From a virus: a stretch of 64,000 nucleotides of DNA. Numbering within the stretch: the stretch's first letter is position 1; every line of letters starts with the position of its first letter. A program made the translations under genes and the position numbers. The stretch covers positions 65,071 through 129,070 of IMG/VR virus record IMGVR_UViG_3300044835_000040, one strand, 5' to 3'. Below are positions 534 to 47,363 of this stretch, in pieces. Under the pieces are notes generated by a model. That model had not been told where the DNA came from. It searched no databases and worked only from the letters and a program-made list of their open reading frames with translations.

Positions 534-3500
534 ATGGCCGCGAGCGTTGTCGGCAGTTTCGAGATCATCGACAAAGCGTCGCGGCCGATCAAAGGCATCC
601 GTGACGCGGCGATCGAGGCGGATCTCGCGGTCAAAGATCTCGGGCGGTCGCTCGACAAGGTAGGCACGCAGAAACAGCTGTCGATGATGTCGAACACGGG
701 GGAGAAGATCCGTCGTCTCGCGACCGATGCTGATCAGGCGGCGGAATCCTCCGATCACGTGGCGCGGAACCTGGAGCGCGTCGGCGCGCCGCAGCTGGCG
801 AACAACCTGAACACGACGAACCGGTCGATCGCGAACACGTCCAGTGCCGCGAAAACGGCTGAGCGTGACGTGGGCGACATGAGCGATCGGGTCGACGTGC
901 TCGGCAAACGCAGCGAGAAGGCGGCCGGTGGGCTGCGTGGTCTGAGCGCCACGCTGCCGGGGCTGAAAGCGGCGCTGGTCGCGACGCTGGTGCCGCTGGT
1001 CGGCTTCGCTGCGCAGGGCATCGGCTCGCTGCTCGCGGGCGTTACGTCGCTGCTGCCGAAGCTGACGGATCTGACGGGGATGTTCGGTCCGATGGGGGTC
1101 GCCTTCACCGGCATGGGCGTGGCGATGATCACGACGAAGCTGGCCTTCAACGATCTCGCCAAGGCGATGAACGGCAACAAGAAAGCCCTGGAAGAATTGA
1201 CGCCGCAGGGCAAGGCGTTCCTCGCGACGCTGAAGCTGTACAAGCCGGTGCTGCAGGAGATCCGCAGCTCGGCGCAGGAAGGGCTATTCCCCGGCTTGAA
1301 CGTCGCGGTCCGTCAGCTCGCGAGCGCGCAGCCGGTGCTGAGTCAGATCGTGAAGGGGATGGGCAGTACCCTCGGTGGCTTCGCTGCGAACGCGAGCAAA
1401 CAGTTCACCGGGACGGGCTTCTTGACGGACTTCCAGGCGATCACCGAAGGCGGCCAGCGGACGGTCGGGCGCTTCGGCGAAGCTCTGCTGCATCTCGCCA
1501 ACGTCGCCCGGAACTTCCTGACGGCGGCGCTGCCGTTCACGGACTGGCTGACGCACACGCTGGTCCACTTCAGCGTGCTGGCCGAACGGTCGAGCACGGC
1601 CGCGCGGGAGACGGGTCGCCTCGGCGAAATGTTCCAGCGGACGCAGAGCGCGCTGACGACCTTCGGCGGGATCCTGAAGAACGTCTTCGACATCGTGAAA
1701 GCGGTCGGGCACGCGTCTCGCTCGATGGGCGAAGGGCTGTGGGAAAGCATCGATCGGACGACGAAGAAGTGGGCTGACTTCCTGTCGGGCGGGCAGGGCC
1801 AGAATGACATGGTGAGCTACTTCACGCGGATGCAGCCGGTGCTGCACTCGGTCGGCAAATTCTTCGGGGATCTCGTCAAGGGCCTTGGCGAACTGGCAGG
1901 CGGGACCGGTGCGCAGGCGGCCTTCCGTCAGCTCGATGAAGCGATCCCGTCGCTCGTCAAAGGCATCAGCACTCTGACCGAAGCCTTCGGTCCGTCGGTG
2001 ATCTTGGCGTTCTCCGAAGCGGTGAAGCTGATCGGCACGCTGGCGTCGGACAGCGGTCCCGTCGGCGGCATGTTGCACCTGTTCGCTGGCGTGCTGCAGA
2101 CGGTGAACAGCCTGATCAAACAGATCCCGGCGCTTGGCATCTTGATGAGCACCGCGCTCGCGGCGTTTGGTACGGCGGCGATCCTCGGGCGGATCACGGG
2201 GATGGAGAACGCGGTCGGCAAACTGGCCCGCTCGTGGTTCGGCGTGACCGGCGCGGCGAACGAGGCGGCTGCGGCCGAGTCGCGCGCGGCAGGCGTCGGT
2301 GTCTCTGGTGGCGTGGCTGCAGCGCGGGGTCGTTACCCGGCGGCGCCCGCGGCCGGGTATTCGCGTGCGGCGACGGCAGCTGAGTCGGGGAGCCAGAATA
2401 GCTTCGCGGGTCTGATGATGACGGGCGCGGCGGGCGGCGCGGCGTTGAAACAGCGTGCGGGGTCGCTGATCAAGGGGCTCCCGTCGGCGGCTCTCGGCGG
2501 GCTGGCCGCGGGCGCTGAGTTCCTTGCGCCGCTGATGGTGCTGCAGGGGATCTTCGGCGCGGTCGGTGGGCAGGGCGGCGTCGGCGAACGGGCGGCGTCG
2601 GGGCTGAATGCGGGGACGTTCGGGCTCTCGGGGCTGCTGGGAGGTCCGTTCGTGCCGCACCCGGACATCGGGGGAGGAGCCGCGGCGGAACGGTCACAGG
2701 CGGCGTTCATGCGGTCGTTCGCGACGGGTCGGGGATCGTCGGTCAACCTCGGTGGCGGGATGCCGACCTTCGAGCTGGCAGGCGCGAAGCGGCCGGGCTT
2801 CAACGCAGTCACTGGCGCGTTCACCGGGCAGGGCGTGACGGGCCGGATCGCTCAGAATCAGATCTCGTCGCTACGCACGGAATCTCACGCCAACGAACAG
2901 GCGCTGCAGGGCAAGTTCGGGCATCAGAGCACGACCGAACAGGGCTTCACGCGGGGGCAGCTCTCCGCGGAGATCACGGCGCTGCACGACTACGAAGGGT
3001 ATGTGCAGTCAGCCATCGCGAAGGCGCGCACGCACGGCACCGAACTGGCTCAGGGCTTCGGCACGGCGTACAGCATCTACGAACGGAGCTATGGCCCGCA
3101 GAAGGCGTTCGCGAAGACGAGTAGCGAAGTGCTGGGCTCGATGAAGCATCTCGGCCCGCAGGGCAAACAGGCCCTCGGGGCGGGGGTGCTGAGCTGGGCG
3201 AAGGAACTGGAGGCGCGCGAACCGGCGCTGCGCAAGCCGATCGAAGCGTGGATCAAATCGGTCGAACACGGCATGGACGGCATGGGCCAGCACGTGCGGA
3301 TCGTCAACGGCGAAATCTTCTCGAACACGAACAGCAAATGGCCTGAAATCGCGAAGGCGATCGAAGGCCCGGCAGCGCACGCTGAATACGTGACGCGGGG
3401 GATCTTCTCCCGGATCTTCCAGGACGCGGTGGCGCAGCTCGAAGCCCTCGGCTACAGCAAAACGTCGGCGACGGCGCTGATCAAAGGCGTCGAGCATGGT

Positions 3501-7802: not shown

Positions 7803-9785
7803 ATGCCGGGCGGGGGCGAACGGCTGAAAGACGCGGTGCGTAGCACGCTGGAGCGGTCCGCGAGGTATCACGCGGAGGGCCGCAGCTTCATCGCTGACAT
7901 CCTCGCGCCGGGTCCTCCGGTGCTCGCCGAGATCCATGAGAGCAACATCGAACTGGAGGAGGGCGAGAACCTGCATCTGTCGCAGGCGGTCCGCCAGTAC
8001 GACGCGGACTATGGCCTGGAAGCCGACGACAACCTGCTCGTGGTCCACGTCGGTGAAGGCAACTTCCATGCGGATGCGGTGCTGAGCGACAACGATGTGG
8101 CGCCCCATGCCAAAGTCGGCGAAGCGGGCGGTGGCGCGACCGGCCCAGCGGGAGCGACGGGCGCGGCGGGCGCGACGGGCGCCGCAGGTGCGCCAGGCGG
8201 CGTAGGGGCCACCGGTCCGCAGGGTACGGAAGGGGCACAAGGCGCGACAGGTCCGGCTGGTGGAGCTGGCGCCACGGGAGTCAAAGGGGCGACAGGCACC
8301 GCGGGCGCGGCGGGTGCTACGGGTGCTCAGGGGGCATCGGGCGCGGCTGGTGGCGCCGGACCAACGGGGCCAACGGGTGCGACAGGACCAGTAGGCGCCA
8401 CGGGTGCGGGGACGACAGGCGCGACGGGCTCGGCAGGCCCTGCTGGCGCCACGGGGCCAGCAGGAGCGACGGGAGCTGGCACGACGGGCGCGACTGGGCC
8501 GACGGGCGCCACCGGCACGGTCGGTGCGACTGGTGCTGGCGCGGCGGGTGCCACTGGGTCGACCGGCGCGACAGGTGTCGGTGCGACTGGTGCCACGGGT
8601 CCGTCGGGGATCACGGAAGCCCTCCCGGCGGCGGGTGTGCCGTCGCTACAGCCGCAGCTACTCGCGTCGACGGTGCTGGGCGAGAACTTCCCTCTGTACC
8701 GGACGAACGGGAACACCGAACTGGCTCTGACGAGCGGGCAGGCGGTGATCGTGCCGGGGCCGACGATTCAGGCAGGGAAGACCGTCTCCTCGGTCTCGCT
8801 GGTGCAGGCCGTGAAACCGACGACGCAAACACACGCGTGGGTCGCGATCCTGACGTTGACCGGCGAAGTGCTGGCAGTAAGCGCGGATGCAACCTCGACT
8901 CCGTGGACATCGACAGCGAACGCGGAGGCCAAGGTCGCGCTCGCTGCGAGCTGGACGCCTTCGGCCGAGACGGCGACGCTGGTGGCGATCATGTCGGCGG
9001 CGACGACCCCGCCGAAACTGCTCGGCGTCTCAGCGGCTGGCGTCGCCGCCGCGGCGTTCTCGCCGATCTACGCGGGGAACAGCCCGACGACCGGCTCGAC
9101 GACGCCGCCTGCGGTCGGCGCGTCGATCGTGCTGCCGACAGCGGCGGGAACGGTCGTGCCGTATATCCGATTCAACTCGGAAGTCTTGGCTGCCCCGACC
9201 TACCGCGGTGAAGCGCTCGCGAACGCGACGGCAGTCACGTCGCTGACGGCTCCGACGCCGTTCGCGGGCACGACATCGACGGACATGCTGGTGATGGACG
9301 TGACGATCGAAGTGACGAGCGGGTCGCCGCCGACGGTGACCACGCCGTCGGGCTGGACCCTCGTCAATACGCGGCAGGCCGTCGGGGTGTTCGCTCGCTA
9401 CACGTTCTGGAGGATCTACGAAGGCGCTGCGATGCCGAAAGTCGAAGCGAGCGCGTCCTGCGAAATCACGATCCGGCTGCACTCGATCGCGGGCGCCAAA
9501 ACGGTCAACGCGCACAAAGGCTACGAAGAACTTACGCCTACGTCGAGCGTCGTCACGGTCCCGTCGATCACCACGACCGTCGAAAACACACTGCTGCTGA
9601 TGATGGTCGGCAATAACTTCGGCTTCTCGTGGACGACCCCGGCGGGTTGGGCTTCGCAGAACACGTCAGCGGAGATGCACCTGTTCTCGAAGACGCAGGC
9701 GACGGCGGGCGCGGTCGGCACCACGGCGGTCAAAGAGGCTGCGACCGCGCAGGTGGCTGCCGCGATCATGGCCGTCGCTCCGTGA
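7803..9785 (+). CDS. spike/fibre protein with Gly-X-Thr collagen-like repeat
   Basis: N-terminal XkdR/spike-like region, about 50 GXX triplets rich in GAT, beta-rich C-terminal domains. Confidence 0.8.
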
Positions 9786-33928: not shown

Positions 33929-35971
33929 GTGACGGCAAGGCCCTCGATCGGTTCCCTCGAAGACCTGCCTGACGTTCACGGGCCGTTCGGTGATGGGCAG
34001 GTGCCGGTCTGGTCGCAGTCGCAGGGAGCGTTCGTTCCGGGCGCTGGCGGCGGTGGCGGTGGCGGCACGGGCGCGACTGGGCCGCAGGGAGCGACTGGTC
34101 CCGCAGGCAGCCAGGGCGCAACGGGCGCTGCTGGCGCAACGGGCGCGGGCGGTGTGCAGGGAGCGACGGGTCCCGTCGGCGGTCTCGGCGCGACCGGCGT
34201 CAACGGCGCGACCGGAGCTGGCGGCGCGCAGGGAGCGACCGGTCCCGCGGGTGGACTGGGCGCGACGGGCGTGGCTGGCGCTACTGGTGCTGGAGGCCCG
34301 GCGGGAGCGACAGGTTCGGTCGGTGCGGCTGGCGCGACAGGTGTCAAAGGAGCCACGGGCACAGAAGGTCCGGCTGGCGCTACGGGCGCCGCTGGGACCG
34401 TCGGAGCGACCGGTGCTGGCACCGTGGGCGCGACGGGAGCGAAAGGCACGACGGGTTCAGAAGGGCCTGCTGGGGCGACCGGCGCAGCGGGCACCGTGGG
34501 CGCTACCGGCGCGGGCACCGTGGGGGCTACCGGCGCGAAAGGTGCAACGGGCACCGAAGGCGCTGTCGGTGCGACCGGCGCGGGTACGGTCGGCGCGACC
34601 GGGGCCAAAGGAGCCACGGGCAGCGAAGGGCCAGCTGGCGCGACTGGCGTCAAAGGCACGACCGGCTCGGAAGGCCCCGCGGGCGCGACTGGAGCTGCAG
34701 GCACCGTCGGGGCGACTGGCGTCAAAGGAGCTACGGGCACCGAAGGTGCCGCCGGGGCCACTGGAGCGAAAGGCACCACGGGCTCGGAAGGTCCTGCTGG
34801 TGCCACGGGAGCTGCCGGTACGGTCGGCGCGACTGGCGCGGGCGGCGCGGCGGGCGCCACGGGAGCGAAAGGAGCGACTGGGACCGAAGGTGCCGCTGGC
34901 GCGACCGGTGCGGCGGGCACGGTCGGTGCCACTGGCGCCAAAGGCACGACGGGGTCGGAAGGCCCTGCGGGTGCGACGGGCACGACCGGTGCGGCGGGCG
35001 CCACTGGCGTGAAAGGAGCGACCGGATCAGAAGGTCCGGCTGGCGCCACGGGGACGACCGGTGCTGCTGGCGCGACGGGCGCCAAAGGAGCGACGGGCAC
35101 CGAAGGTCCGCAGGGCGCGACGGGTCCGGCGGGGGCTGCTGGCGCGACTGGAGTGACGGGCGCGACGGGCAGCGGCGGCCCGCAGGGAGCTACCGGGCCG
35201 GAACCGAGCGGCGCGCTGCTGAAAACGAACAACCTCTCCGATGTCGCGAACACGGGCACCTCCCGCGCGAATCTGAAGGACTCGACTCTCGCTCCGGCAA
35301 TCGCAGTGTCGACGGCGAACATCGCGTCGCTCGAAGGCACGCCGGAAGTCGACGGCTACAAACTCGCTGAAGAAGACACGGTGCTGCTGACGGGGCAGAC
35401 CGAAGCGAAGAACAACGGGCCGTGGGTCGTGCCCGTGGGCGCGGGTGCGTGGACCAGACCGGCTGACTACGCGACGGGGATGGAAGTCCGGGCGCGCCTA
35501 ATCATGGTCGTGAAAGGCACGGTGTACGCCAACTCCGTGTGGATGCTCTCGACGCGGACGTTGATCACGGTCGGCACGACCGCATCGACCTGGGTCCGCT
35601 CGAATAAGACCCGCCACCGCACCGGTCACGCGTGGGTCACGCGCGGCACTGAACCGTGGGCGATCGAAACGATCCAGGGTCCGCCCGTCCGCCCGGCGAC
35701 CGCGGAGACGCAGTACATCGCTGGCGTCGACTGGACGAAAGTCACGTCGGGCACCTCCCCGAAAGTCAGCTTCAAGATCCAGGTCAACGGCGCGGACGTG
35801 GGGCTCGGCACGACCGCTTCGCCGCTGCTGATGGAAGCCGCTGACGGCAACTCGATGCTGACGACGCCAGTCGAACTGAAAGCCGGGGACGACATCACGC
35901 TCGTGATCCTCGCGATCTCCACCGCGCCGCTCGGCGGGCGCATCGGCCTGCACATCGACCACGTTGCATGA
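33929..35971 (+). CDS. long collagen-like (Gly-X-Thr) fibre protein
   Basis: About 125 GXX triplets; C-terminal [17 protein letters not shown] fibre-type domain. Confidence 0.88.
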
Positions 35972-41200: not shown

Positions 41201-43031
41201 GCGAGTTCCAGCGGCTGCAGCGCGAGAAGGAACGGGAGCATGTCCGCCGGTTCCACGTGCTCGCGAAACTCATCTTCTGGGTGTGGGTGATGGTGTTCAT
41301 CGCGCTGCTGCTGCACGAGGTGCTGCCGACGTTGGCGTGGCAGATCCTAAGCGTCGTGGTGTGGCTGTTCGTGATGCGCGTCCTGTGGGTCGATGCGCAT
41401 CTGGTCGAGCCGCCGCCGGAGGAGTATCCGACGACGCCGGAGCCGGTGAAGCACGTGCCGCCGCTACCGCCGGAGCCGGGGCCGCCAGAGGCGCCGCGGC
41501 CGCCGTTGCATAGACCCGTGGACTGACAACTGAGGAGGTAGCTGATGACCGCTGAACAGAAGCCGAGCATCGGACGGATTGTGATCTTCGACAACCCGGA
41601 GCACTACCAGAACCCGGTGCCCGCGATCGTCACGCAGGTGCGCGACGGGGACGCCGTGGTGGTGACGGCGTTCCCGCCCGGCATCGCACCGCAGGCGCAC
41701 GGTGTGATCGTGCCGAAACACGACGGCTCGGGCGACCAGGGCTTCAGCTGGCAGTGGCCGGAGCGCATCTGATGGGCGTCGGGGCGGTGATAGACACGTC
41801 GCTTCTGATCATGGGAGCGCTGGTCAGTGTCGGGGTCGCGCTGATGGCGCTGGCGGATCTCGGGAAGGACGAGGCCAAGGACGGCGCGGCTGGGGCGGCT
41901 CTCGCTCTGCTGCTGTTCGGGTTCGTCGGGATCGCGTGCGCGGTCGGTGCGTTGGCGGTCGCCGGGAACGCGATCTTCGGATGATCGTGGTCAAAGCGGA
42001 TCTGCTGTCAGCGATCAGCAGCGGCCGTGACCGCACGCTGTGCGAGGTCGAGATCGCGAACACGGGGGAGCAGGGCATCGGCTCGCGAGGCACGTACGAG
42101 GTGCGTCTGTACAGCGCGTCACGGACCGGCAAGCGGGGTCGTCTGATCCGGACGGCGCGCGTGGAGGACTGGCCGCGCGAGGCGAAGCCTGCGTGGCGGC
42201 TGATCCAGGCAGCGATGGAGGCGCTGGGATGACGGAGGGGAAGCCGGAGCGTCGCGGCAAGCCGATCGAGCCTGACGAGTTGGGCTGGTGGACTGGGCTG
42301 GTGGCCGTCTCGGGTACGAACCCGGTCACGCGCTCGGCGGTGCCGGATCCTCCTGACGGGAAGGCGCCGGAGCGCTCGTGCATGATGCTGTTGCCGGAGG
42401 AGGTATTGGGCTGATGGACGTGCAGGTCCGCATCTACATCGAACCGGCGGTGCGCGGCGTCGCGGGCGTCGGCGTGGAAAGGACCGGCAGCTTCGAGTGG
42501 AGTGTCGAGGGTCGGCGCGCGATGCCGAAGCCGCAGTACTGCGCGAGCTAGACGATCTCGTGCGGCGGGGCGGCTGATGGGCGCCCGGCAGCAGCGGCAC
42601 TACAAGCCGAAAGGTCGCACGCCGGACCGTCGTCGTGACGAGCCGCTGGACCCGAAGCGCAAACCGACGGCGCGCGACATCGCGGGCGACCGCAAGCCGG
42701 AGGCGCGGGTCCATCACGCGGTCAGCACGTGGCGGATCGAGCCGCACGGCGAGGTCTACGGGTTCGACGAACTGGGACGCGGATGAGCGGCTTCGAGCGC
42801 CGTGTCGAGACGTGGGAGTGCGCGTTCCCGGCGGCGCGCGTCGGTCCCGGCGGCCGCTATGAGATCCCGGAGAAGACGGTCGCCTATCACGGCGAGAAGC
42901 GGATGGCGCTGGAATTCGCGGTGCTGCACATCGCGGCGATGGTGGGCCTGCCGCCGTGGAAGCCGTTGCGTCGCGAGGTCGCGAAGCTGGCGACGGTGAG
43001 CAAACGCGTGGAGCTGGTCAAGCTCGGCTGA
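41197..43031 (+). other. cluster of small coupled hypothetical ORFs, several with TM segments
   Basis: Chain of overlapping short ORFs (41197, 41545, 41772, 41981 and following). Confidence 0.5.
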
Positions 43032-43063
43032 GGTCCGGCCGCGCCGCGGCTTACGATGCGCGG

Positions 43064-43479
43064 GTGCAAGGTGCGGAGCGGGACAGCGAGGAGGGCGCGG
43101 AGGTCATCGTCCTGCGGCCGGGGCTGGATCCCGATGCTGACGCGCTGATTGAAGCGCGACCGGAAACCGAGGCGCTGCCACCACACGAAGTTCAGCATGG
43201 ACGCCACGCTGCACAAGGTGTTCTGCCGGGAGTGCGACGAGGAGATCGATCCGTGGGAGGCGCTGGACCGCATCGCGTCGCAGCCGGAACGGTGGGTCAC
43301 GCAGGGGCGAGCTGCGCGTGGTGAGGCCCGGCGCGAGCAAAGCGCTGGAGGAGCTGCTGCGCGAGGAGCGCAACGCGAAGGCCCGCAAGCGTCGCCGTGA
43401 GGGGCCGCGCAAGGAGCTGACGGCGGACGAGCGCCGCGCGATCATGTTCCCGCTCTCGACACGCTCGGGGCCGTCGTGA
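43064..43479 (+). pseudogene. zinc-binding protein gene broken by two +1 frameshifts
   Basis: Coding-like text passes through three frames: AEVIVLRPGLDPDADAL / KRDRKPRRCHH...CREC / ALEELLREERNAKARK. Confidence 0.5.
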
Positions 43480-44309
43480 GGGACTGGCGGGCACCGATGG
43501 AGGGCCGTGCGTGCTCGCACTGCGGCTGCGTGAAGTTCCCGCTGCTGTGCGTCTACTACTGGCGCCCGCCGCGCACGCAGTACGGGCACACGTACCCGGA
43601 GTTCTACTCGGCACGAGCACGCTGCATCGACCGCCGGACGTGCGAGGCCCGCGTGACGAAGCGCACCGAGCGCGCGAAGGTGCGCGGCTCGAAGATCGTG
43701 CTCGCCGAGCCGCCGGGAGATCCTGAGCAGCGCGCCCGCAGCGGGTTCTGCAGCTGGTGCGGCAAGCCGATGTGGCGCAAGAACAAAGACGGCCAGACGG
43801 TGATGGATCTGACCCGCAGCTACCACAACGAGGTCAAAGGCGACGGTGAGTGCAGGGAACTGTTCTACGCCAGCTACACCTACAGGGCCGATGGGGCGGT
43901 CGCTGGCCGCGCGCGCCTGGAAGGCAAGATCGAGCTGGAGTGCGTGGACTGCGGGAAGGTCTGCGAAACGATCCAGCCCAATCACCCGGACGCGCGGTGC
44001 CGATGCGGGCACAAGCGCAGCGAGCACGTGCAGGGAGGCGCGGGCTACAAACAGGTGTGCAACGTCGAGGGCTGCACGGGCTGCCGGTCGGGCGAGGGCG
44101 AGTCGATCTACCAGAGCGGGTTCCGGGCGATGGGCGCGCCGTGGGAAGCGGACCATGAGATCGAGCTGGAGGACGGCGGCGAGCACTCGGTCGAGAACCT
44201 GCGGTGCCGGTGCGTGCCGTGCCACAAGCGGAAGACGGCGGCGAGCATCGCTGCACGGCGCCCGCCGAAGCCGAAGCCGGTCGAGCTGACGGAGGCGATG
44301 TTCGAGTGA
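43476..44309 (+). CDS. Cys-rich HNH endonuclease
   Basis: WEADHEIELEDGGEHSVENLRCRCVPCHKRKT. Confidence 0.8.
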   Translation: MRDWRAPMEGRACSHCGCVKFPLLCVYYWRPPRTQYGHTYPEFYSARARCIDRRTCEARVTKRTERAKVRGSKIVLAEPPGDPEQRARSGFCSWCGKPMWRKNKDGQTVMDLTRSYHNEVKGDGECRELFYASYTYRADGAVAGRARLEGKIELECVDCGKVCETIQPNHPDARCRCGHKRSEHVQGGAGYKQVCNVEGCTGCRSGEGESIYQSGFRAMGAPWEADHEIELEDGGEHSVENLRCRCVPCHKRKTAASIAARRPPKPKPVELTEAMFE

Positions 44310-44564
44310 GGGGCGTACCGGGCACGAGCTGCAAGATGACGGTCGGCCGGTGGGACGGCGAGCTACCGGTGCCGGGCGACTTCCTGCGCACCCGTGCGGG
44401 CAGCTGCTACCGGATCGACGAGGTGAGGCCGGGCCGCGTCAAACGCGTCGGGAGCTTGCGGTGCACGCGGCTGGAGCACGACGCGGTAGCTGAGGGCGAC
44501 GACGGCGTGTGGATGTGGTACTGGAACCCGCGCGTGCGGACGCTTCCACGGTAGGATCCTGCGC

Positions 44565-44676
44565 GGCTGGGATGGGGAAGGGCTGGCTGGGCGGTGACGG
44601 CAAAGGAAAGCACCGGATAGGAGTGGTAGGCTGCGCCGCACTGGCTAGGAAGGGTCTGGTTCTTGTCGACCTAGCC
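44565..44676 (+). repeat. pentamer-periodic array 1 (GGN-NN) with 3' hairpin
   Basis: 15 in-register pentamers 44565-44639 (10 begin GG, 14 begin G) after a TAGGAT -10 at 44552; GGCTAGG/CCTAGCC hairpin 44643-44676. Confidence 0.75.
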
Positions 44677-44707
44677 GCTGTACAGACAACGCTCAGGAGA
44701 GCTTCAT

Positions 44708-45304
44708 ATGGACTACGAGGTGCATTGGACGGGCATCCAGCCGCTCGTCATTCACAACATCAGGCTGGCGAACCCGCTCGACCCGTACGTGAAGGCGCTG
44801 AAAGCGATCACGGGCAAGCGTAAGAAGACCGAGGACGACCACGCCGAGCTGATGCGGCTGGAGTGGGAGGGCGGCCTGTATCACGACGACGACCTGGGGC
44901 CGTATGTCCCGGCGTCCTACCCGGTCGCGACGCTGCGCGCGTCGGCTGCGCTGACGAAGCACAAGGCGTCACTGCAGCGCGGCATGATGGTCACGGCCGT
45001 CGATGGCGGCGATCGTGTGCCGATCGAATACGAGGGGCCGCGCGACATCAAGAGGATGTGGGCCGACCAGGAGACCTTCCTCGACTTCCGCGCTGTCCGT
45101 GTCGGGCAGGCGCGCACATTCCGCGCACGGCCGAGGTTCCCCGACTGGGCCGTCACGTTCCGTGTGGTGCTCGACCCGGAGGTGATCGACGCTGACGTGT
45201 TCGAGTCGATCAACGAGCGTGCTGGTCGGCTGATCGGGTGCGCAGAGTCCGCCGAAGGTCAGCGTGCGCGCTTCGCCGCGACGATGAGCGAGCTGGTCGC
45301 GTGA
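44708..45304 (+). CDS. stand-alone Cas7/RAMP-like protein
   Basis: beta1-G..PL.IHN N-terminus, PYVPA...ATLR.SA helix, RARPRFPDWAVTFRV thumb, AGRLIG...RF C-terminal loop; RBS AGGAG. Confidence 0.7.
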   Translation: MDYEVHWTGIQPLVIHNIRLANPLDPYVKALKAITGKRKKTEDDHAELMRLEWEGGLYHDDDLGPYVPASYPVATLRASAALTKHKASLQRGMMVTAVDGGDRVPIEYEGPRDIKRMWADQETFLDFRAVRVGQARTFRARPRFPDWAVTFRVVLDPEVIDADVFESINERAGRLIGCAESAEGQRARFAATMSELVA

Positions 45305-45510
45305 GCGTCGCGGGGGAGCGTGTCAAGAAGCTGCTCGCGCGCAACGAGGTCGAGCGCGTGCGTGCGGGCACAGCGCATCTGCTCGGGCTGCGCTCACGCG
45401 TGGAGCAGCGTGAGGACGCCGCGGAGGCACTGCGCGAGGGACAGGATCTGAGGCACCCGGAGCTGCCGGGCGCCATCAAACGTCGGGCGCGCGAGCTGCG
45501 CTCACGGTGA
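45301..45510 (+). CDS. 69-aa basic helical partner protein of the RAMP-like gene
   Basis: GTGA-coupled to the RAMP-like gene; ends 7 nt before array 2. Confidence 0.6.
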   Translation: MSVAGERVKKLLARNEVERVRAGTAHLLGLRSRVEQREDAAEALREGQDLRHPELPGAIKRRARELRSR

Positions 45511-45517
45511 ACCGCCG

Positions 45518-45737
45518 GGACCGGAATGGGCAGGAAGGCAAGGGAAGGGCGCGGATCGGCTCGGACCGCCGGGGATCGGCCTGGACAGGGACGGACTGGT
45601 AGGCGCAGGATCGGATTGGTTGGGATCGGCATGGACGGCGAGGGACAGGCGCGGCAGGCGAGGGACCGGAATGCAAGGGACGCGTCGGGCTCGCGAAGGC
45701 TGGGAGCGGAAAGGAAAGCACCGGCCGGGTAGGCGGA
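45518..45737 (+). repeat. pentamer-periodic array 2 (GG[A/C]-NN), candidate guide-RNA array
   Basis: 44 consecutive pentamers in unbroken register; 43 begin G and 34 begin GG (third base A20, C9, T3, G2); last two bases variable. Confidence 0.9.
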
Positions 45738-45997
45738 TACGCTGCGTCAGCGTGAGGACCGACACGGCGATCACGCTGACGCAAATCCCGCCGGGGAAGT
45801 GCTGCCGGTTGTGCGGCCGCATGTTCGTGCTCGCTCGCCGCAGGCGCTTCACTGGGAGCCGCGGCAGGCACTCGAAGCAGCTCGTGTTCACGGAGCCGTC
45901 GAAGGTGGTTGTGACGGTGCTGATCAAAGACTGGGATCCCGCCGTCGAGCAGGCCGCGTAGACTGTCTGTACAGCAACCGATTTACGGAGGTGCGAG

Positions 45998-46222
45998 ATG
46001 GTGAGCGCGCAGCTGCGCTGGTACTCGGTCAGTGGTGCGTACGCGGGCGCGCTGGTCGCCGCCGAGAACGCGGAGGACGCGATGCGTCTCGCACGCGAGC
46101 AGGCATCCGGCATCTCCGACTGGTACGACGCCGCGCCGATCGAGGACTCCGGCGCGAGGCTCCGCCGCGAGCCGCCGGGACCGCCGACGGCCGCTGGCGT
46201 CTACTACGCGTGGGCCGAGTGA
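45998..46222 (+). CDS. hypothetical protein with conserved leader
   Basis: GCAACCGATTTACGGAGGTGCGAG-ATG. Confidence 0.6.
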   Translation: MVSAQLRWYSVSGAYAGALVAAENAEDAMRLAREQASGISDWYDAAPIEDSGARLRREPPGPPTAAGVYYAWAE

Positions 46223-46454
46223 GCGCCGCCGAGTACACGGACGCGGAGACGATCGACTACCGCGTGGTCGAGTGCGTCGGCGCGATCCCCGGCTCGATCG
46301 GCTACGAGGATCATCCCGATCTGCGGCTGTCGACGAGGATCGAGGAGGCGCTGAACGCGGTGGCAGTGGATGGCTTCGTGCTGGAGCGGATCGAGCAGTG
46401 GAAGCCGGTCGAGGGACACGAGCGCGCGATGGTGATCATGCGGCGCCCGAGACC

Positions 46455-46634
46455 GTGACGTGGGAGGTCTACCGCAAGCAGCGGGTAGACAAGAACCCGC
46501 AGGCACACAAGACGCACTGCAAGCGCGGACATCCGTTGAGCGGCCCGAACATGCGGATCATGGCCGACGGTAAACGAGTGTGCTTGACGTGCCGCCGATG
46601 GCGTGAACGCAGACTCCGCGCCAAACGAGCTTGA
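46455..46634 (+). CDS. isolated HNH-associated zinc-finger tail
   Basis: KTHCKRGHPLSGPN...RVCLTC with no nuclease core. Confidence 0.6.
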   Translation: MTWEVYRKQRVDKNPQAHKTHCKRGHPLSGPNMRIMADGKRVCLTCRRWRERRLRAKRA

Positions 46635-46655
46635 CGCTCTGGCTACGATCGACGC

Positions 46656-47363
46656 ATGGCAGCGAAGCGCAGCGGACGGACCGCCAAACGAGCCGGGACC
46701 GCGAAGCCAGCGAAACCTGTCGGTAAGGCGCAGCCCCGCCGGTCAACGAAGGCGGACGAGACGGTCGCGAACGGCGATATCCCGCAGTCGGTGAAGACCC
46801 TCGCGAAAGCCGACCGGTACAGGCTGATCTACGCCAAGCAACGCGCCGGGCACGACCTGCAGAAGGTCGCTGAAGAATTCTCGACCGACAAGGAACCGAT
46901 CAGCGCTCGCCGCGCCCGTGAGATCTGCGACGAGCTACGCGCCGGGAAGAACGTGTACCCGGTCACGACTTCCCCGCAGGAGGCGCTTCGGATCTTCGAC
47001 GAGCTGATCGACCAGTACGACCACGCGATCGGGATCGACGTGGAAATCCTCGAAGGCGCGTTGAAGGCGAAGCACTGGTCCGCGGCGACGGGCGCTTCAA
47101 AGCGGCTCGGCGAAGCGCGCAAGGAGCGCCTGGAACTGTTGATGGCTCGCGGGGTGCTCCCGGCGAACCTCGCGATGCTGGAGTGGCACGCGGACGCGGA
47201 ACTGGTGTGGACGGCGATCGAGGAGGTCTTCGAGGAGAACGGGATCCCGATGGAGATCCGGGAGGAGATCACGCGCAGGGCGGGGTTGCGTGCTGGGCTC
47301 GCCGCGGATGAGGTGCCGCAGCCGGACGGGCCGGGGGAGCTGGTGTCGGGCGAAGTGGTGTAG
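46656..47363 (+). CDS. HTH protein, possibly terminase small subunit-like
   Basis: Basic N-terminus, HTH, helical C-terminus; no large terminase nearby. Confidence 0.4.
   Translation: MAAKRSGRTAKRAGTAKPAKPVGKAQPRRSTKADETVANGDIPQSVKTLAKADRYRLIYAKQRAGHDLQKVAEEFSTDKEPISARRAREICDELRAGKNVYPVTTSPQEALRIFDELIDQYDHAIGIDVEILEGALKAKHWSAATGASKRLGEARKERLELLMARGVLPANLAMLEWHADAELVWTAIEEVFEENGIPMEIREEITRRAGLRAGLAADEVPQPDGPGELVSGEVV

What the first reader, a model, noticed from the sequence alone, without database searches (positions are those of the whole stretch)
44552..45737. Lone Cas7/RAMP-like gene flanked by GG(A/C)-NN pentamer arrays: candidate non-CRISPR RNA-guided system
Seen: the layout is -10 hexamer, array 1, 198-aa ORF, coupled 69-aa ORF, array 2. 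Array 2 keeps an exact 5-nt register for 220 bp (GGACC GGAAT GGGCA GGAAG GCAAG GGAAG GGCGC GGATC GGCTC ...), with a near-constant triplet and a freely varying dinucleotide. A period of 5 is incompatible with coding, and the variability argues against a slippage microsatellite. I saw no CRISPR repeats or other cas genes. Known: Cas7-type RAMPs polymerise on RNA with a fixed per-subunit footprint. Inference: each subunit grips the constant triplet and displays NN, so the dinucleotides jointly spell a target, perhaps a competing phage or a host gene, for silencing. From memory this resembles recently reported phage RAMP plus GGY/NN repeat (VIPR-type) systems, which needs verifying; here the triplet is mostly GGA.
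Basis: partly seen in the sequence, partly recalled or inferred. Interest (0 to 1): 0.96.

Follow-up and report, generated by a model that had tools for sequence, protein, structure and literature searches.

The report
Phage VIPR RNA-guided system, variant repeats
A large soil phage carries a genuine member of the VIPR family, a CRISPR-like RNA-guided DNA-silencing system first described in 2026, with somewhat unusual guide repeats and no identifiable target yet.

Summary

Four features differ from the characterised type II systems:
- The third repeat base is only A-biased (30 A, 13 C, 8 G, 5 T of 56), not a pyrimidine.
- The G-loop is longer and lacks the aromatic residue that contacts G2.
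- The conserved vap1-like gene is missing, and a 69-aa orphan ORF sits in its place.
- Array 2 is one uninterrupted 43-unit tract that GG(T/C)AG|GC appears to split into three guides.

No target, expression data or DNA from the closest clade could be obtained. Verdict: new member of a known kind, of moderate interest.

The parts
44550..44634 (+). Array 1, the candidate upstream guide RNA gene (vrRNA-U). It is bounded by GGTAG at 44550 and GGTAG|GC at 44625-44631. About 13 guide units run from 44565.
   Evidence: 10 of 13 units start with GG. The period-5 score is about 4.7 SD. It shares a 27-nt block (44590-44616) at 81% identity with 45698-45724. The delimiter is in register.
44708..45304 (+). 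vipr: a 198-aa Vipr protein, a stand-alone Cas7-like RAMP.
45301..45510 (+). A 69-aa orphan ORF, translationally coupled to vipr by a GTGA overlap and sitting in the position of a vap gene.
   Evidence: GC by codon position is 0.84/0.51/0.81, computed from 45304, which looks coding. No homologue other than itself and no usable Atlas hit. Predicted as one long helix plus a short helix, pLDDT 87.6. Unrelated to the vap1-like family of relatives.
45518..45602 (+). Array 2, candidate guide D1: 17 pentamer units ending in GGTAG, followed by GC.
   Evidence: 15 of 17 units start with GG. Delimiter at 45598. GGGACCGGAATG at 45517 recurs at 45662.
45603..45657 (+). Array 2, candidate guide D2: 11 units ending in GGCAG, followed by GC.
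   Evidence: 9 of 11 units start with GG. Delimiter at 45653.
45658..45737 (+). Array 2, candidate guide D3: 15 units ending in GGTAG|GC. Its 3' half is paralogous to array 1.
   Evidence: 10 of 15 units start with GG. Delimiter at 45728. Shared 27-nt block with array 1.
45743..45783 (+). A strong hairpin just after array 2, with a perfect 13-nt inverted repeat. It is a candidate terminator or 3' protective structure for the operon or the last guide.
   Evidence: Inverted repeat I2. RNA fold of 45728-45800 gives -38.1 kcal/mol, z=-4.35, and 1 of 200 shuffles folds as well. No T-run, so it is not called by the terminator scan.
43476..44554 (+). Upstream context: an HNH endonuclease gene (43476-44309) and a 72-aa ORF (44336-44554). 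They may be co-transcribed with array 1. A link to VIPR is not shown.
   Evidence: Pfam HNH, E=2.1e-6, and phrog_333. Neither ORF has a tblastn hit in the 91 related loci.

Best explanation
This is a VIPR (Viral Interference Programmable Repeat) system in a 129-kb tailed phage from soil. The steps below are transferred by homology to the SUSP1 and P. fulva systems and were not tested here.

1. The + strand is transcribed across array 1, vipr, the 69-aa ORF and array 2. Transcription probably forms one unit with the upstream genes and ends at the 45743-45783 hairpin.
2. The pentamer tracts give about four guide RNAs: one upstream (about 13 units) and three contiguous ones downstream (17, 11 and 15 units).
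3. Vipr protomers bind one pentamer each. They sequester the GG anchor and the third base, and display the two variable bases.
4. The filament reads double-stranded DNA with one skipped base per two read. Binding silences transcription of a competitor, most likely a rival phage, satellite or prophage of the same unknown host.

Two features appear specific to this lineage. Only GG is strongly fixed, the third base being A-biased and not a pyrimidine. A rare GG(T/C)AG|GC unit seems to mark where one guide ends and the next begins.
For: Shown here:
- Sequence homology to the solved SUSP1 Vipr (E=5.1e-20).
- SUSP1 RNA- and DNA-contact residues H17, K33 and R138 align to H16, K32 and R141. R179 aligns to R186 in one of two alignments.
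- Arrays lie on the vipr strand only, and they are the only long ones in the genome.
- The same association holds in relatives: 63 of 91 loci on the same strand against 2 of 91 on the opposite strand. At least 4 pairs of those loci are the same DNA from two collections, and many loci are short.
- As a positive control, the same detector finds 12- and 13-unit GGT/NN arrays on both sides of vipr in felixounavirus wV8, a SUSP1-like phage.
- The delimiter GG[TC]AGGC occurs 4 times in register, with a unit-shuffle p of 0.0056.
- In other purine-type arrays a rare GGT unit sits at array ends or between duplicated guides.
- No self-target: the best match is 19 of 24 against a shuffled maximum of 20. 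The paper reports the same for its systems.
- The record is a virus with a tape measure protein, tail fibres and RecT.

From the papers: the filament, the GGY sequestration, the 1-nt skip, dsDNA silencing and inter-phage targets.
Against: - No RNA data are available, so transcription, processing and guide boundaries are inferred.
- No natural target was found.
- The third base is mostly a purine. The structure paper says the SUSP1 pocket sterically excludes purines. Here the G-loop is longer, and depending on the alignment W178 and possibly R179 are not conserved. RNA recognition must therefore differ in detail.
- 10 of 56 units have GC in place of GG.
- The conserved vap1-like gene, found in 40 of 91 relatives, is absent from the whole genome. 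A later preprint reports that SUSP1 needs Vap1 as well as Vipr against its satellite.
- Only array 1 and guide D3 share a tail-like block, so no invariant structured 3' tail common to all four guides is seen.
Confidence: 0.9

Rival explanations
1. The locus is a decaying or inactive VIPR remnant. The protein gene is still open, but the arrays have degenerated and the accessory gene is lost, so nothing is silenced.
For: - 10 of 56 units carry GC in place of GG, and the third base is relaxed at 1.68 bits.
- No vap1-like gene lies anywhere in the genome.
- Array 1 has only 10 of 13 GG units.
Against: - The vipr ORF is intact, with coding-like GC3 of 0.87 and a model at pLDDT 95.
- H16, K32 and R141 are retained.
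- The clade of 15 proteins conserves its variant G-loop. E180, E183, G184, R186 and F189 are invariant in A2, which argues for selection and against decay.
- The 220-nt tract keeps an exact register.
Confidence: 0.07
2. The arrays work as DNA and not as guide RNA genes. They could be G-rich structural or protein-binding elements such as two-tetrad G-quadruplexes, iterons, or an origin or packaging signal that happens to lie next to vipr.
For: GG every 5 nt on one strand could in principle form G-quadruplex-like structures. I saw no promoter consensus directly before either array.
Against: - The strand-specific link to vipr across the family (63 of 91 against 2 of 91) fits a transcribed partner.
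- The variable-NN, constant-GG pattern also fits a transcribed partner.
- sRNA-seq and co-purification were shown for SUSP1, P. fulva and two other types.
Confidence: 0.02
3. Array 2 is protein-coding, through the ORFs at 45526-45732 or 45620-45961.
For: Open frames of 68 and 113 aa overlap it.
Against: - GC by codon position is flat across the array (0.68/0.70/0.71), whereas real genes here show about 0.87-0.91 at position 3.
- A strict period of 5 is incompatible with a reading frame.
- Only the part after 45752 looks coding (GC3 0.91).
Confidence: 0.01

Closest known systems
VIPR systems, with type II of Escherichia phage SUSP1 and the Pseudomonas fulva prophage as the reference (bioRxiv 10.64898/2026.04.26.720920, 10.64898/2026.04.26.720927, 10.64898/2026.10.15.759431)
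   Same: - The Vipr protein is homologous (E=5e-20 to the solved SUSP1 chain, and about 29-30% identity to felixounavirus copies).
- It is a stand-alone small RAMP in a phage.
- Period-5 arrays with a GG anchor and variable NN lie on the vipr strand.
- The layout of one guide upstream and three downstream matches what the paper reports for SUSP1, if the delimiter reading holds.
- No self-target was found.
   Different: - The third base is A-biased and not a pyrimidine.
- The G-loop is longer, has E in place of D177, and has no aromatic residue at W178.
- There is no vap1-like gene. A 69-aa orphan ORF sits in its place.
- The downstream guides are contiguous, without the roughly 50-nt tails seen after each wV8 array.
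Purine-type (GGA/NN) Vipr loci found here in metagenomic and viral contigs: L064, L052 and L023
   Same: - A is the main third base, at 92-97% in those loci.
- The arrays are long and uninterrupted, with 34-44 units in L052 and L064.
- A rare GGT unit sits at guide ends.
- L064 is the nearest branch to the window's clade in the quick tree, though support is only 81 and the branch is long.
- L052 and L064 share the longer G-loop with E and no aromatic residue.
   Different: - They use strict GGA, while the window is mixed.
- L052 and L064 carry the vap1-like gene.
- Protein identity to the window is only about 35-38%.
- L023 has a canonical DWRP G-loop, so the loop does not by itself explain the purine.
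Non-canonical VIPR repeat classes in print: NNNGG, YNNNG and NNNNG (10.64898/2026.04.26.720920, methods), and GAC/NN, CAC/NN, WGT/NN and TGH/NN (10.64898/2026.10.21.760802)
   Same: The principle that Vipr homologues pair with pentamers whose constant part departs from GGY is already published. The window's repeat fits 'NNNGG'.
   Different: The passages I read name neither a GGA nor an A-biased GGN motif, nor a GG(T/C)AG|GC delimiter. The figures and tables that list the motifs were not visible to me.
Class 1 CRISPR backbone subunits (Cas7 family: Csm3, Cmr4, type VII Cas7, Cas7-11 domains)
   Different: - Sequence identity is 6-13%.
- No Cas7 profile matches in PADLOC or NCBIfam.
- There is no CRISPR array and no other cas gene at the locus.
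- The step is 5 nt with 2 read, not 6 nt with 5 read.

Membership tests
VIPR system | A Vipr protein homologous to the characterised Vipr proteins | tested here: met
   phmmer against PDB sequences gives 36pp_D 'SUSP1 Vipr protein', E=5.1e-20, query 6-180 against chain 7-177 of 202. tblastn finds 130 phage records, including felixounaviruses, Gordonia phage Trine and Pseudomonas phage Medea1.
VIPR system | The residues that read G1, G2 and Y3 in SUSP1 (H17, D177, R138, W178, R179, C173, T175) | tested here: inconclusive
   H16 and R141 are conserved. D177 aligns to E180. W178 aligns to Q185 or S181, and R179 to R186 or A182, depending on the alignment. The loop is 1-4 residues longer. The consequences for RNA reading cannot be computed here.
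VIPR system | Tandem pentamers on the vipr strand with a constant GG(Y) and hypervariable NN | tested here: met
   GG plus variable NN is met: G in 54 of 56 units at position 1 and 46 of 56 at position 2, with 1.89 and 1.90 bits at positions 4 and 5. The pyrimidine at position 3 is not met (A 30, C 13, G 8, T 5). The paper admits NNNGG variants.
VIPR system | Guides of about 9-16 repeats followed by an invariant structured 3' tail | tested here: inconclusive
   Delimiters give 13, 17, 11 and 15 units. Only array 1 and D3 share a 27-nt block. A strong hairpin follows only array 2 (z=-4.35, against +1.04 after array 1). No Rfam match.
VIPR system | An accessory vap gene next to vipr | tested here: not met
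   The vap1-like family (wV8 gp94, Medea1_0008 and Trine gp40, which are mutually homologous) is present in 40 of 91 related loci. It is absent from the whole 129-kb genome, with a best tblastn E of 0.25. A 69-aa orphan ORF takes its place, and its role is unknown. The paper says loci 'typically' have a vap, so this does not exclude membership.
VIPR system | A minimal locus without a CRISPR array or cas genes, in a viral genome | tested here: met
   It is a virus record with tail genes and RecT. Tandem Repeats Finder shows no CRISPR-like repeats. None of the 5 locus proteins matches a PADLOC family. Not every window protein was scanned.
VIPR system | vrRNAs that are expressed and co-purify with Vipr | not testable with these tools
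   Only one DNA run holds the stretch, and no RNA holder is listed.
VIPR system | Guides that match natural dsDNA targets by the 1-nt-skip rule | tested here: inconclusive
   - No match above shuffled controls in the phage's own genome.
- 74 IMG/VR seed hits extended only at chance level.
- 0 of 401 sampled Actinomycetota genomes matched guide D1 at up to 3 mismatches.
- No match in 168 fetched loci or 121 Vipr-family proteins.
The host and its mobile elements are unknown, so this is a weak test.
CRISPR-Cas class 1 (Cas7 family) | A Cas7 sequence family profile, a CRISPR array and partner cas genes | tested here: not met
   No PADLOC or NCBIfam family matches the protein. There is no CRISPR-like array. 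Only the fold is shared.

The most novel reading that the evidence does not exclude
The window's Vipr clade is 15 proteins, all from uncultured sources. It has its own longer E-x-x-E-G G-loop, and this member has no vap1-like gene.

The most novel reading is that this clade anchors on GG alone. It would then use a GG(T/C)AG|GC unit as punctuation, so that a single uninterrupted transcript encodes several guides without tails or ribozymes between them. The freed third base might then carry information, giving three-letter words or a different skip. That would be a recognition code distinct from the published 'two read, one skipped' code.
Probability: 0.12. Interest if true: 0.7.

Novelty: new member of a known kind. 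Interest (0 to 1): 0.35.

Why it matters
VIPR is a very recent class of programmable RNA-guided DNA binders, and the experimental work I read centres on GGY-type systems such as SUSP1 and P. fulva.

This locus adds a well-supported, uncultured soil-phage clade with three departures:
- The third repeat base is mostly a purine, although the solved SUSP1 pocket excludes purines.
- The usual accessory gene is missing.
- Three guides seem to be strung together, separated only by a short in-register mark.

If confirmed, these features would help define which parts of the Vipr-vrRNA interface are essential. They would also show how guides are punctuated and processed. Beyond that the finding is an ordinary, correctly recognised example of a known family, and this scan has noted that family many times on other DNA.

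Tried and rejected
Target search. None of these results counts for or against function.
- Own genome: the best match was 19 of 24 bases, against a shuffled maximum of 20.
- Four 8-unit seeds in IMG/VR gave 13, 10, 20 and 31 hits. Extension outside the seed stayed at chance: 0-2 of 6, 3-5 of 18, at most 6 of 14, and at most 5 of 10.
- Full guide D1 at up to 3 mismatches matched 0 of 2 and then 0 of 401 sampled Actinomycetota genomes. The host phylum is only a guess.
- Guides read as codon positions 1-2 were compared with 121 Vipr-family proteins. The best was 8 of 13, against a shuffled maximum of 7, which is far below the paper's 80% threshold.
- Whole guides against 168 fetched loci gave nothing beyond the seeded hits.
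- The codon-phase likelihood test was weak. Antisense positions 1-2 scored +5.5 bits and sense positions 2-3 scored +3.3 bits. NN GC is 54% against a genome GC of 68%.

Expression. No RNA holder is listed, and one DNA run may be the source.

Closest clade. The viral, genome and metagenome scans returned only relatives at 44% identity or less, apart from short fragments. So I could not test whether the mixed third base, the delimiter or the orphan ORF is typical of the clade.

The 69-aa ORF.
- Vipr with orf69 by complex prediction gave no verdict.
- The Atlas gave no usable hit.
- There was no similarity to the downstream ORFs of 54 relatives.

A G-loop rule for purine against pyrimidine was rejected as a simple rule. 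Non-aromatic residues at the W178 position also occur in GGY-type loci, and L023 uses GGA with a canonical loop.

Other checks that gave nothing.
- Promoter and terminator consensus scans found none.
- The phage's own promoter classes, taken from earlier notes, have no copy in 43000-47000.
- Rfam gave no match.
- blastn of the locus against phages gave no match.
- For host inference, RecT matched only an archaeal virus, and the window has no tRNA.
- HNH as a vap is unsupported. It has no homologue in related loci, and its only NCBIfam hit is a sub-threshold match to IscB (E=0.0046, 16 bits against a cut-off of 175).

The careful tree did not finish. The tree I cite is the quick one, with SH-aLRT support only.

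Supplementary files and figures of the papers were not visible. Type assignment, the motif logos (Fig. S17 and S10) and the staggered-array figure (S18) may therefore already cover features that I describe as differences.
Full report
**What is there**

The window is the second half of a single 129,070-bp virus record with 68% GC. It encodes a tape measure protein, tail fibres, a RecT-like protein and a terminase-like protein. It has no close relative among 50,697 phage records. One soil-metagenome DNA run holds the stretch.

On the + strand the locus reads, in order:
- an HNH endonuclease gene (43476-44309);
- a 72-aa ORF (44336-44554);
- array 1 (about 44550-44634);
- a 198-aa ORF (44708-45304);
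- a 69-aa ORF (45301-45510), whose GTG start overlaps the preceding stop as GTGA;
- array 2 (45518-45737);
- a strong hairpin (45743-45783).

Array 2 keeps one exact 5-nt register.
- 34 of 43 units start with GG, against a genomic GG frequency of 0.11. The binomial tail is 6e-25, uncorrected.
- Its period-5 score is the highest in the window, about 7 SD.

Array 1 is weaker.
- 10 of 13 units start with GG, and the score is about 4.7 SD.
- It shares a 27-nt block, 81% identical, with the end of array 2.

The arrays are specific to this locus.
- At 7 of 8 GG units, only array 2 passes anywhere in the 129-kb genome.
- At 6 of 8, the two arrays pass with two minimal 8-unit hits on the + strand, and nothing passes on the - strand.

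Composition over 56 units:
- Position 1 is G in 54.
- Position 2 is G in 46 and C in 10.
- Position 3 is A 30, C 13, G 8, T 5 (1.68 bits).
- Positions 4 and 5 carry 1.89 and 1.90 bits.
So the constant part is GG, with an A-biased third base.

The array is not coding. GC by codon position is flat across it, at 0.68/0.70/0.71.

The proposed -10 hexamer TAGGAT has no support beyond fitting TANNNT. The consensus scan finds no promoter-like site, and the hexamer is part of a GGTAGG unit that also holds the stop codon of the upstream ORF.

**What the protein is**

Sequence evidence:
- Pfam, PADLOC and NCBIfam give nothing.
- PHROGs gives phrog_4652 of unknown function, E=1.4e-43.
- Against PDB sequences the only hit is 36pp_D, 'SUSP1 Vipr protein', at E=5.1e-20 over nearly the full length.

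Fold evidence:
- The AlphaFold2 model built on 35 homologues has pLDDT 95.2 and pTM 0.88.
- Foldseek's top hits are Csm3 and type VII Cas7 chains.

**What VIPR is (from the papers)**

I read the results, discussion and several methods sections of bioRxiv 10.64898/2026.04.26.720920. I read passages of 10.64898/2026.04.26.720927, 10.64898/2026.10.15.759431 and 10.64898/2026.10.21.760802. Figures and supplements were not visible.

The system:
- VIPR loci hold a vipr gene, typically a vap gene, and vrRNAs.
- Each vrRNA has 9-16 YNNGG repeats followed by an invariant tail.

How it recognises DNA:
- Vipr protomers form a filament on the vrRNA and sequester GGY.
- They present NN, which pairs with double-stranded DNA while skipping one target base per unit.
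- Binding silences transcription.

Targets and variety:
- Natural targets are satellites, prophages and other VIPR loci.
- Seven types exist, including staggered contiguous arrays.
- Alternative repeats are NNNGG, YNNNG and NNNNG.
- A later preprint adds other non-canonical motifs (GAC/NN, CAC/NN, WGT/NN, TGH/NN).

**The family association, tested here**

The protein has 121 homologues besides itself in the word-indexed search, all unnamed or 'hypothetical'. I fetched 91 loci that encode relatives at 44% identity or less, apart from short fragments.
- Arrays with at least 7 of 8 GG units lie on the vipr strand in 63 of 91 loci, next to the gene.
- They lie on the opposite strand in 2 of 91.
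- At least four pairs of loci are the same DNA from two collections. Many loci are short, so the 28 loci without same-strand arrays are partly truncations.
- One clade of 14 loci, with a GLCDSRPKYGKF loop, has no same-strand GG array in any member and may use another repeat.
- As a control, the detector finds 12- and 13-unit GGT/NN arrays on both sides of vipr in felixounavirus wV8.

**How this member differs**

(a) The third base.
- Most loci with arrays (48 of the 54 labelled rows in the tree) have C or T at position 3, at 70% or more of units.
- Three loci use A at 92-97%: L023, L052 and L064.
- Two are mixed: L073 and L077.
- The window is A 58%, C 25%, G 8%, T 8% in the detector's units, or 30/13/8/5 in all 56 units.

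(b) The G-loop.
- SUSP1 residues H17, K33 and R138 align with H16, K32 and R141.
- D177 aligns with E180.
- The loop is longer, and the aromatic W178 has no counterpart.
- R179 aligns with R186 or A182, depending on the alignment.
- The 15-protein clade conserves its own loop, with E180, E183, G184, R186 and F189 invariant in A2.
- L052 and L064 share a longer loop with E and no aromatic residue.
- L023 has a canonical loop, and some GGY loci also lack the aromatic residue. The loop therefore does not by itself explain the purine.

(c) The vap gene.
- wV8 gp94, Medea1_0008 and Trine gp40 are homologous to each other (E 1e-12 to 5e-9).
- Their family lies downstream of vipr in 40 of 91 loci.
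- The whole 129-kb genome has none (best E 0.25).
- The 69-aa ORF in its place looks coding and has no homologue.
- It is predicted as one long helix plus a short one.

(d) Array architecture.
- I confirmed four in-register copies at 44625, 45598, 45653 and 45728. Only 0.56% of 20,000 unit shuffles reach that count.
- A fifth GGTAG opens array 1 at 44550.
- This gives guides of about 13, 17, 11 and 15 units: one upstream and three downstream, as the paper reports for SUSP1.
- In other purine-type arrays a rare GGT unit sits at array ends (L064_a, L064_b, L023_b, L023_c), between two duplicated guides (L064_b), and mid-array as GGTAA|GC (L052).
- In the window, 4 of the 5 GGT units are delimiters.
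- Only array 1 and D3 share a tail-like block.
- Only array 2 is followed by a significant structure, at z=-4.35, against +1.04 after array 1.

**Phylogeny**

In the quick tree of 94 rows, the window and the 14 close proteins form a clade with SH-aLRT support of 99.
- L064 is their nearest branch, but support is only 81 and the branch is long.
- The next group is a mostly soil GGY clade that includes Gordonia phage Trine and several Actinomycetota genomes.
- The three strict-GGA loci fall at three places, all on long branches.
- The careful search did not finish.

**Function**

Nothing could be measured here, so the mechanism is transferred by homology. No self-target exists, as the paper also reports for its systems. 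Target searches found nothing above chance, and the host is unknown. Details are under Tried and rejected.

**Verdict**

This is a true, intact-looking VIPR locus: a new member of a known kind, with four variant features.
- A relaxed, A-biased third base.
- A variant G-loop clade.
- No vap1-like gene.
- Contiguous, punctuated guides.

Some of these features may already be covered by figures and tables that I could not see. This scan holds 505 notes with VIPR-related words in at least 376 genomes, so the class is also not new to the scan.

Noticed in passing
window 44677-44688 and 45964-45975: A perfect 12-nt inverted pair around the palindrome CTGTACAG brackets the vipr-orf69-array 2 cassette. 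Each copy lies about 20 nt before a start codon (44708 and 45998). TGTCTGTACA occurs 5 times on the + strand of the 129-kb genome, and only 2 of those copies precede genes. It could be a regulatory site or a cassette boundary.
   Followed up: partly
window 45752-45961: A small ORF of 69 aa from a GTG start has GC3 of 0.91 and a CxxC motif. It begins inside the 45743-45783 hairpin, so its true start may be the ATG near 45821. It has no family hit in PADLOC or NCBIfam.
   Followed up: partly
loci L054, L056-L058, L061, L063, L065, L066, L070-L072, L074, L075, L079, L084: A well-supported clade of Vipr homologues has no same-strand GG-period array by my detector, and most members parsed carry a GLCDSRPKYGKF-type G-loop. 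L074 and L075 show weak opposite-strand hits only. The clade may use a different pentamer anchor.
   Followed up: no
L064:1570-1700: Within one long GGA/NN array a block of about 13 units is repeated exactly, separated only by a GGTTC unit. This looks like a recent tandem duplication of a whole guide.
   Followed up: partly
L167 (Escherichia phage wV8, EU877232.1) 1747-1804 and 3140-3197: The 2008-era GenBank record annotates 'repeat_region DR_4' on the opposite strand beside or overlapping the vrRNA arrays. The arrays' conserved flanks were therefore noticed as direct repeats long before VIPR was described.
   Followed up: no
L092, L167, L168 and 40 of 91 related loci: Gordonia phage Trine gp40, Pseudomonas phage Medea1_0008 and wV8 gp94 are all annotated as hypothetical. 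They belong to one family that sits just downstream of vipr, and it is probably the published vap1.
   Followed up: partly
window 34038-35201: There are long arrays of 9-nt-period (Gly-X-Y, collagen-like) repeats, probably in a tail fibre gene. A second collagen-like tail fibre lies at 7803-9782.
   Followed up: no
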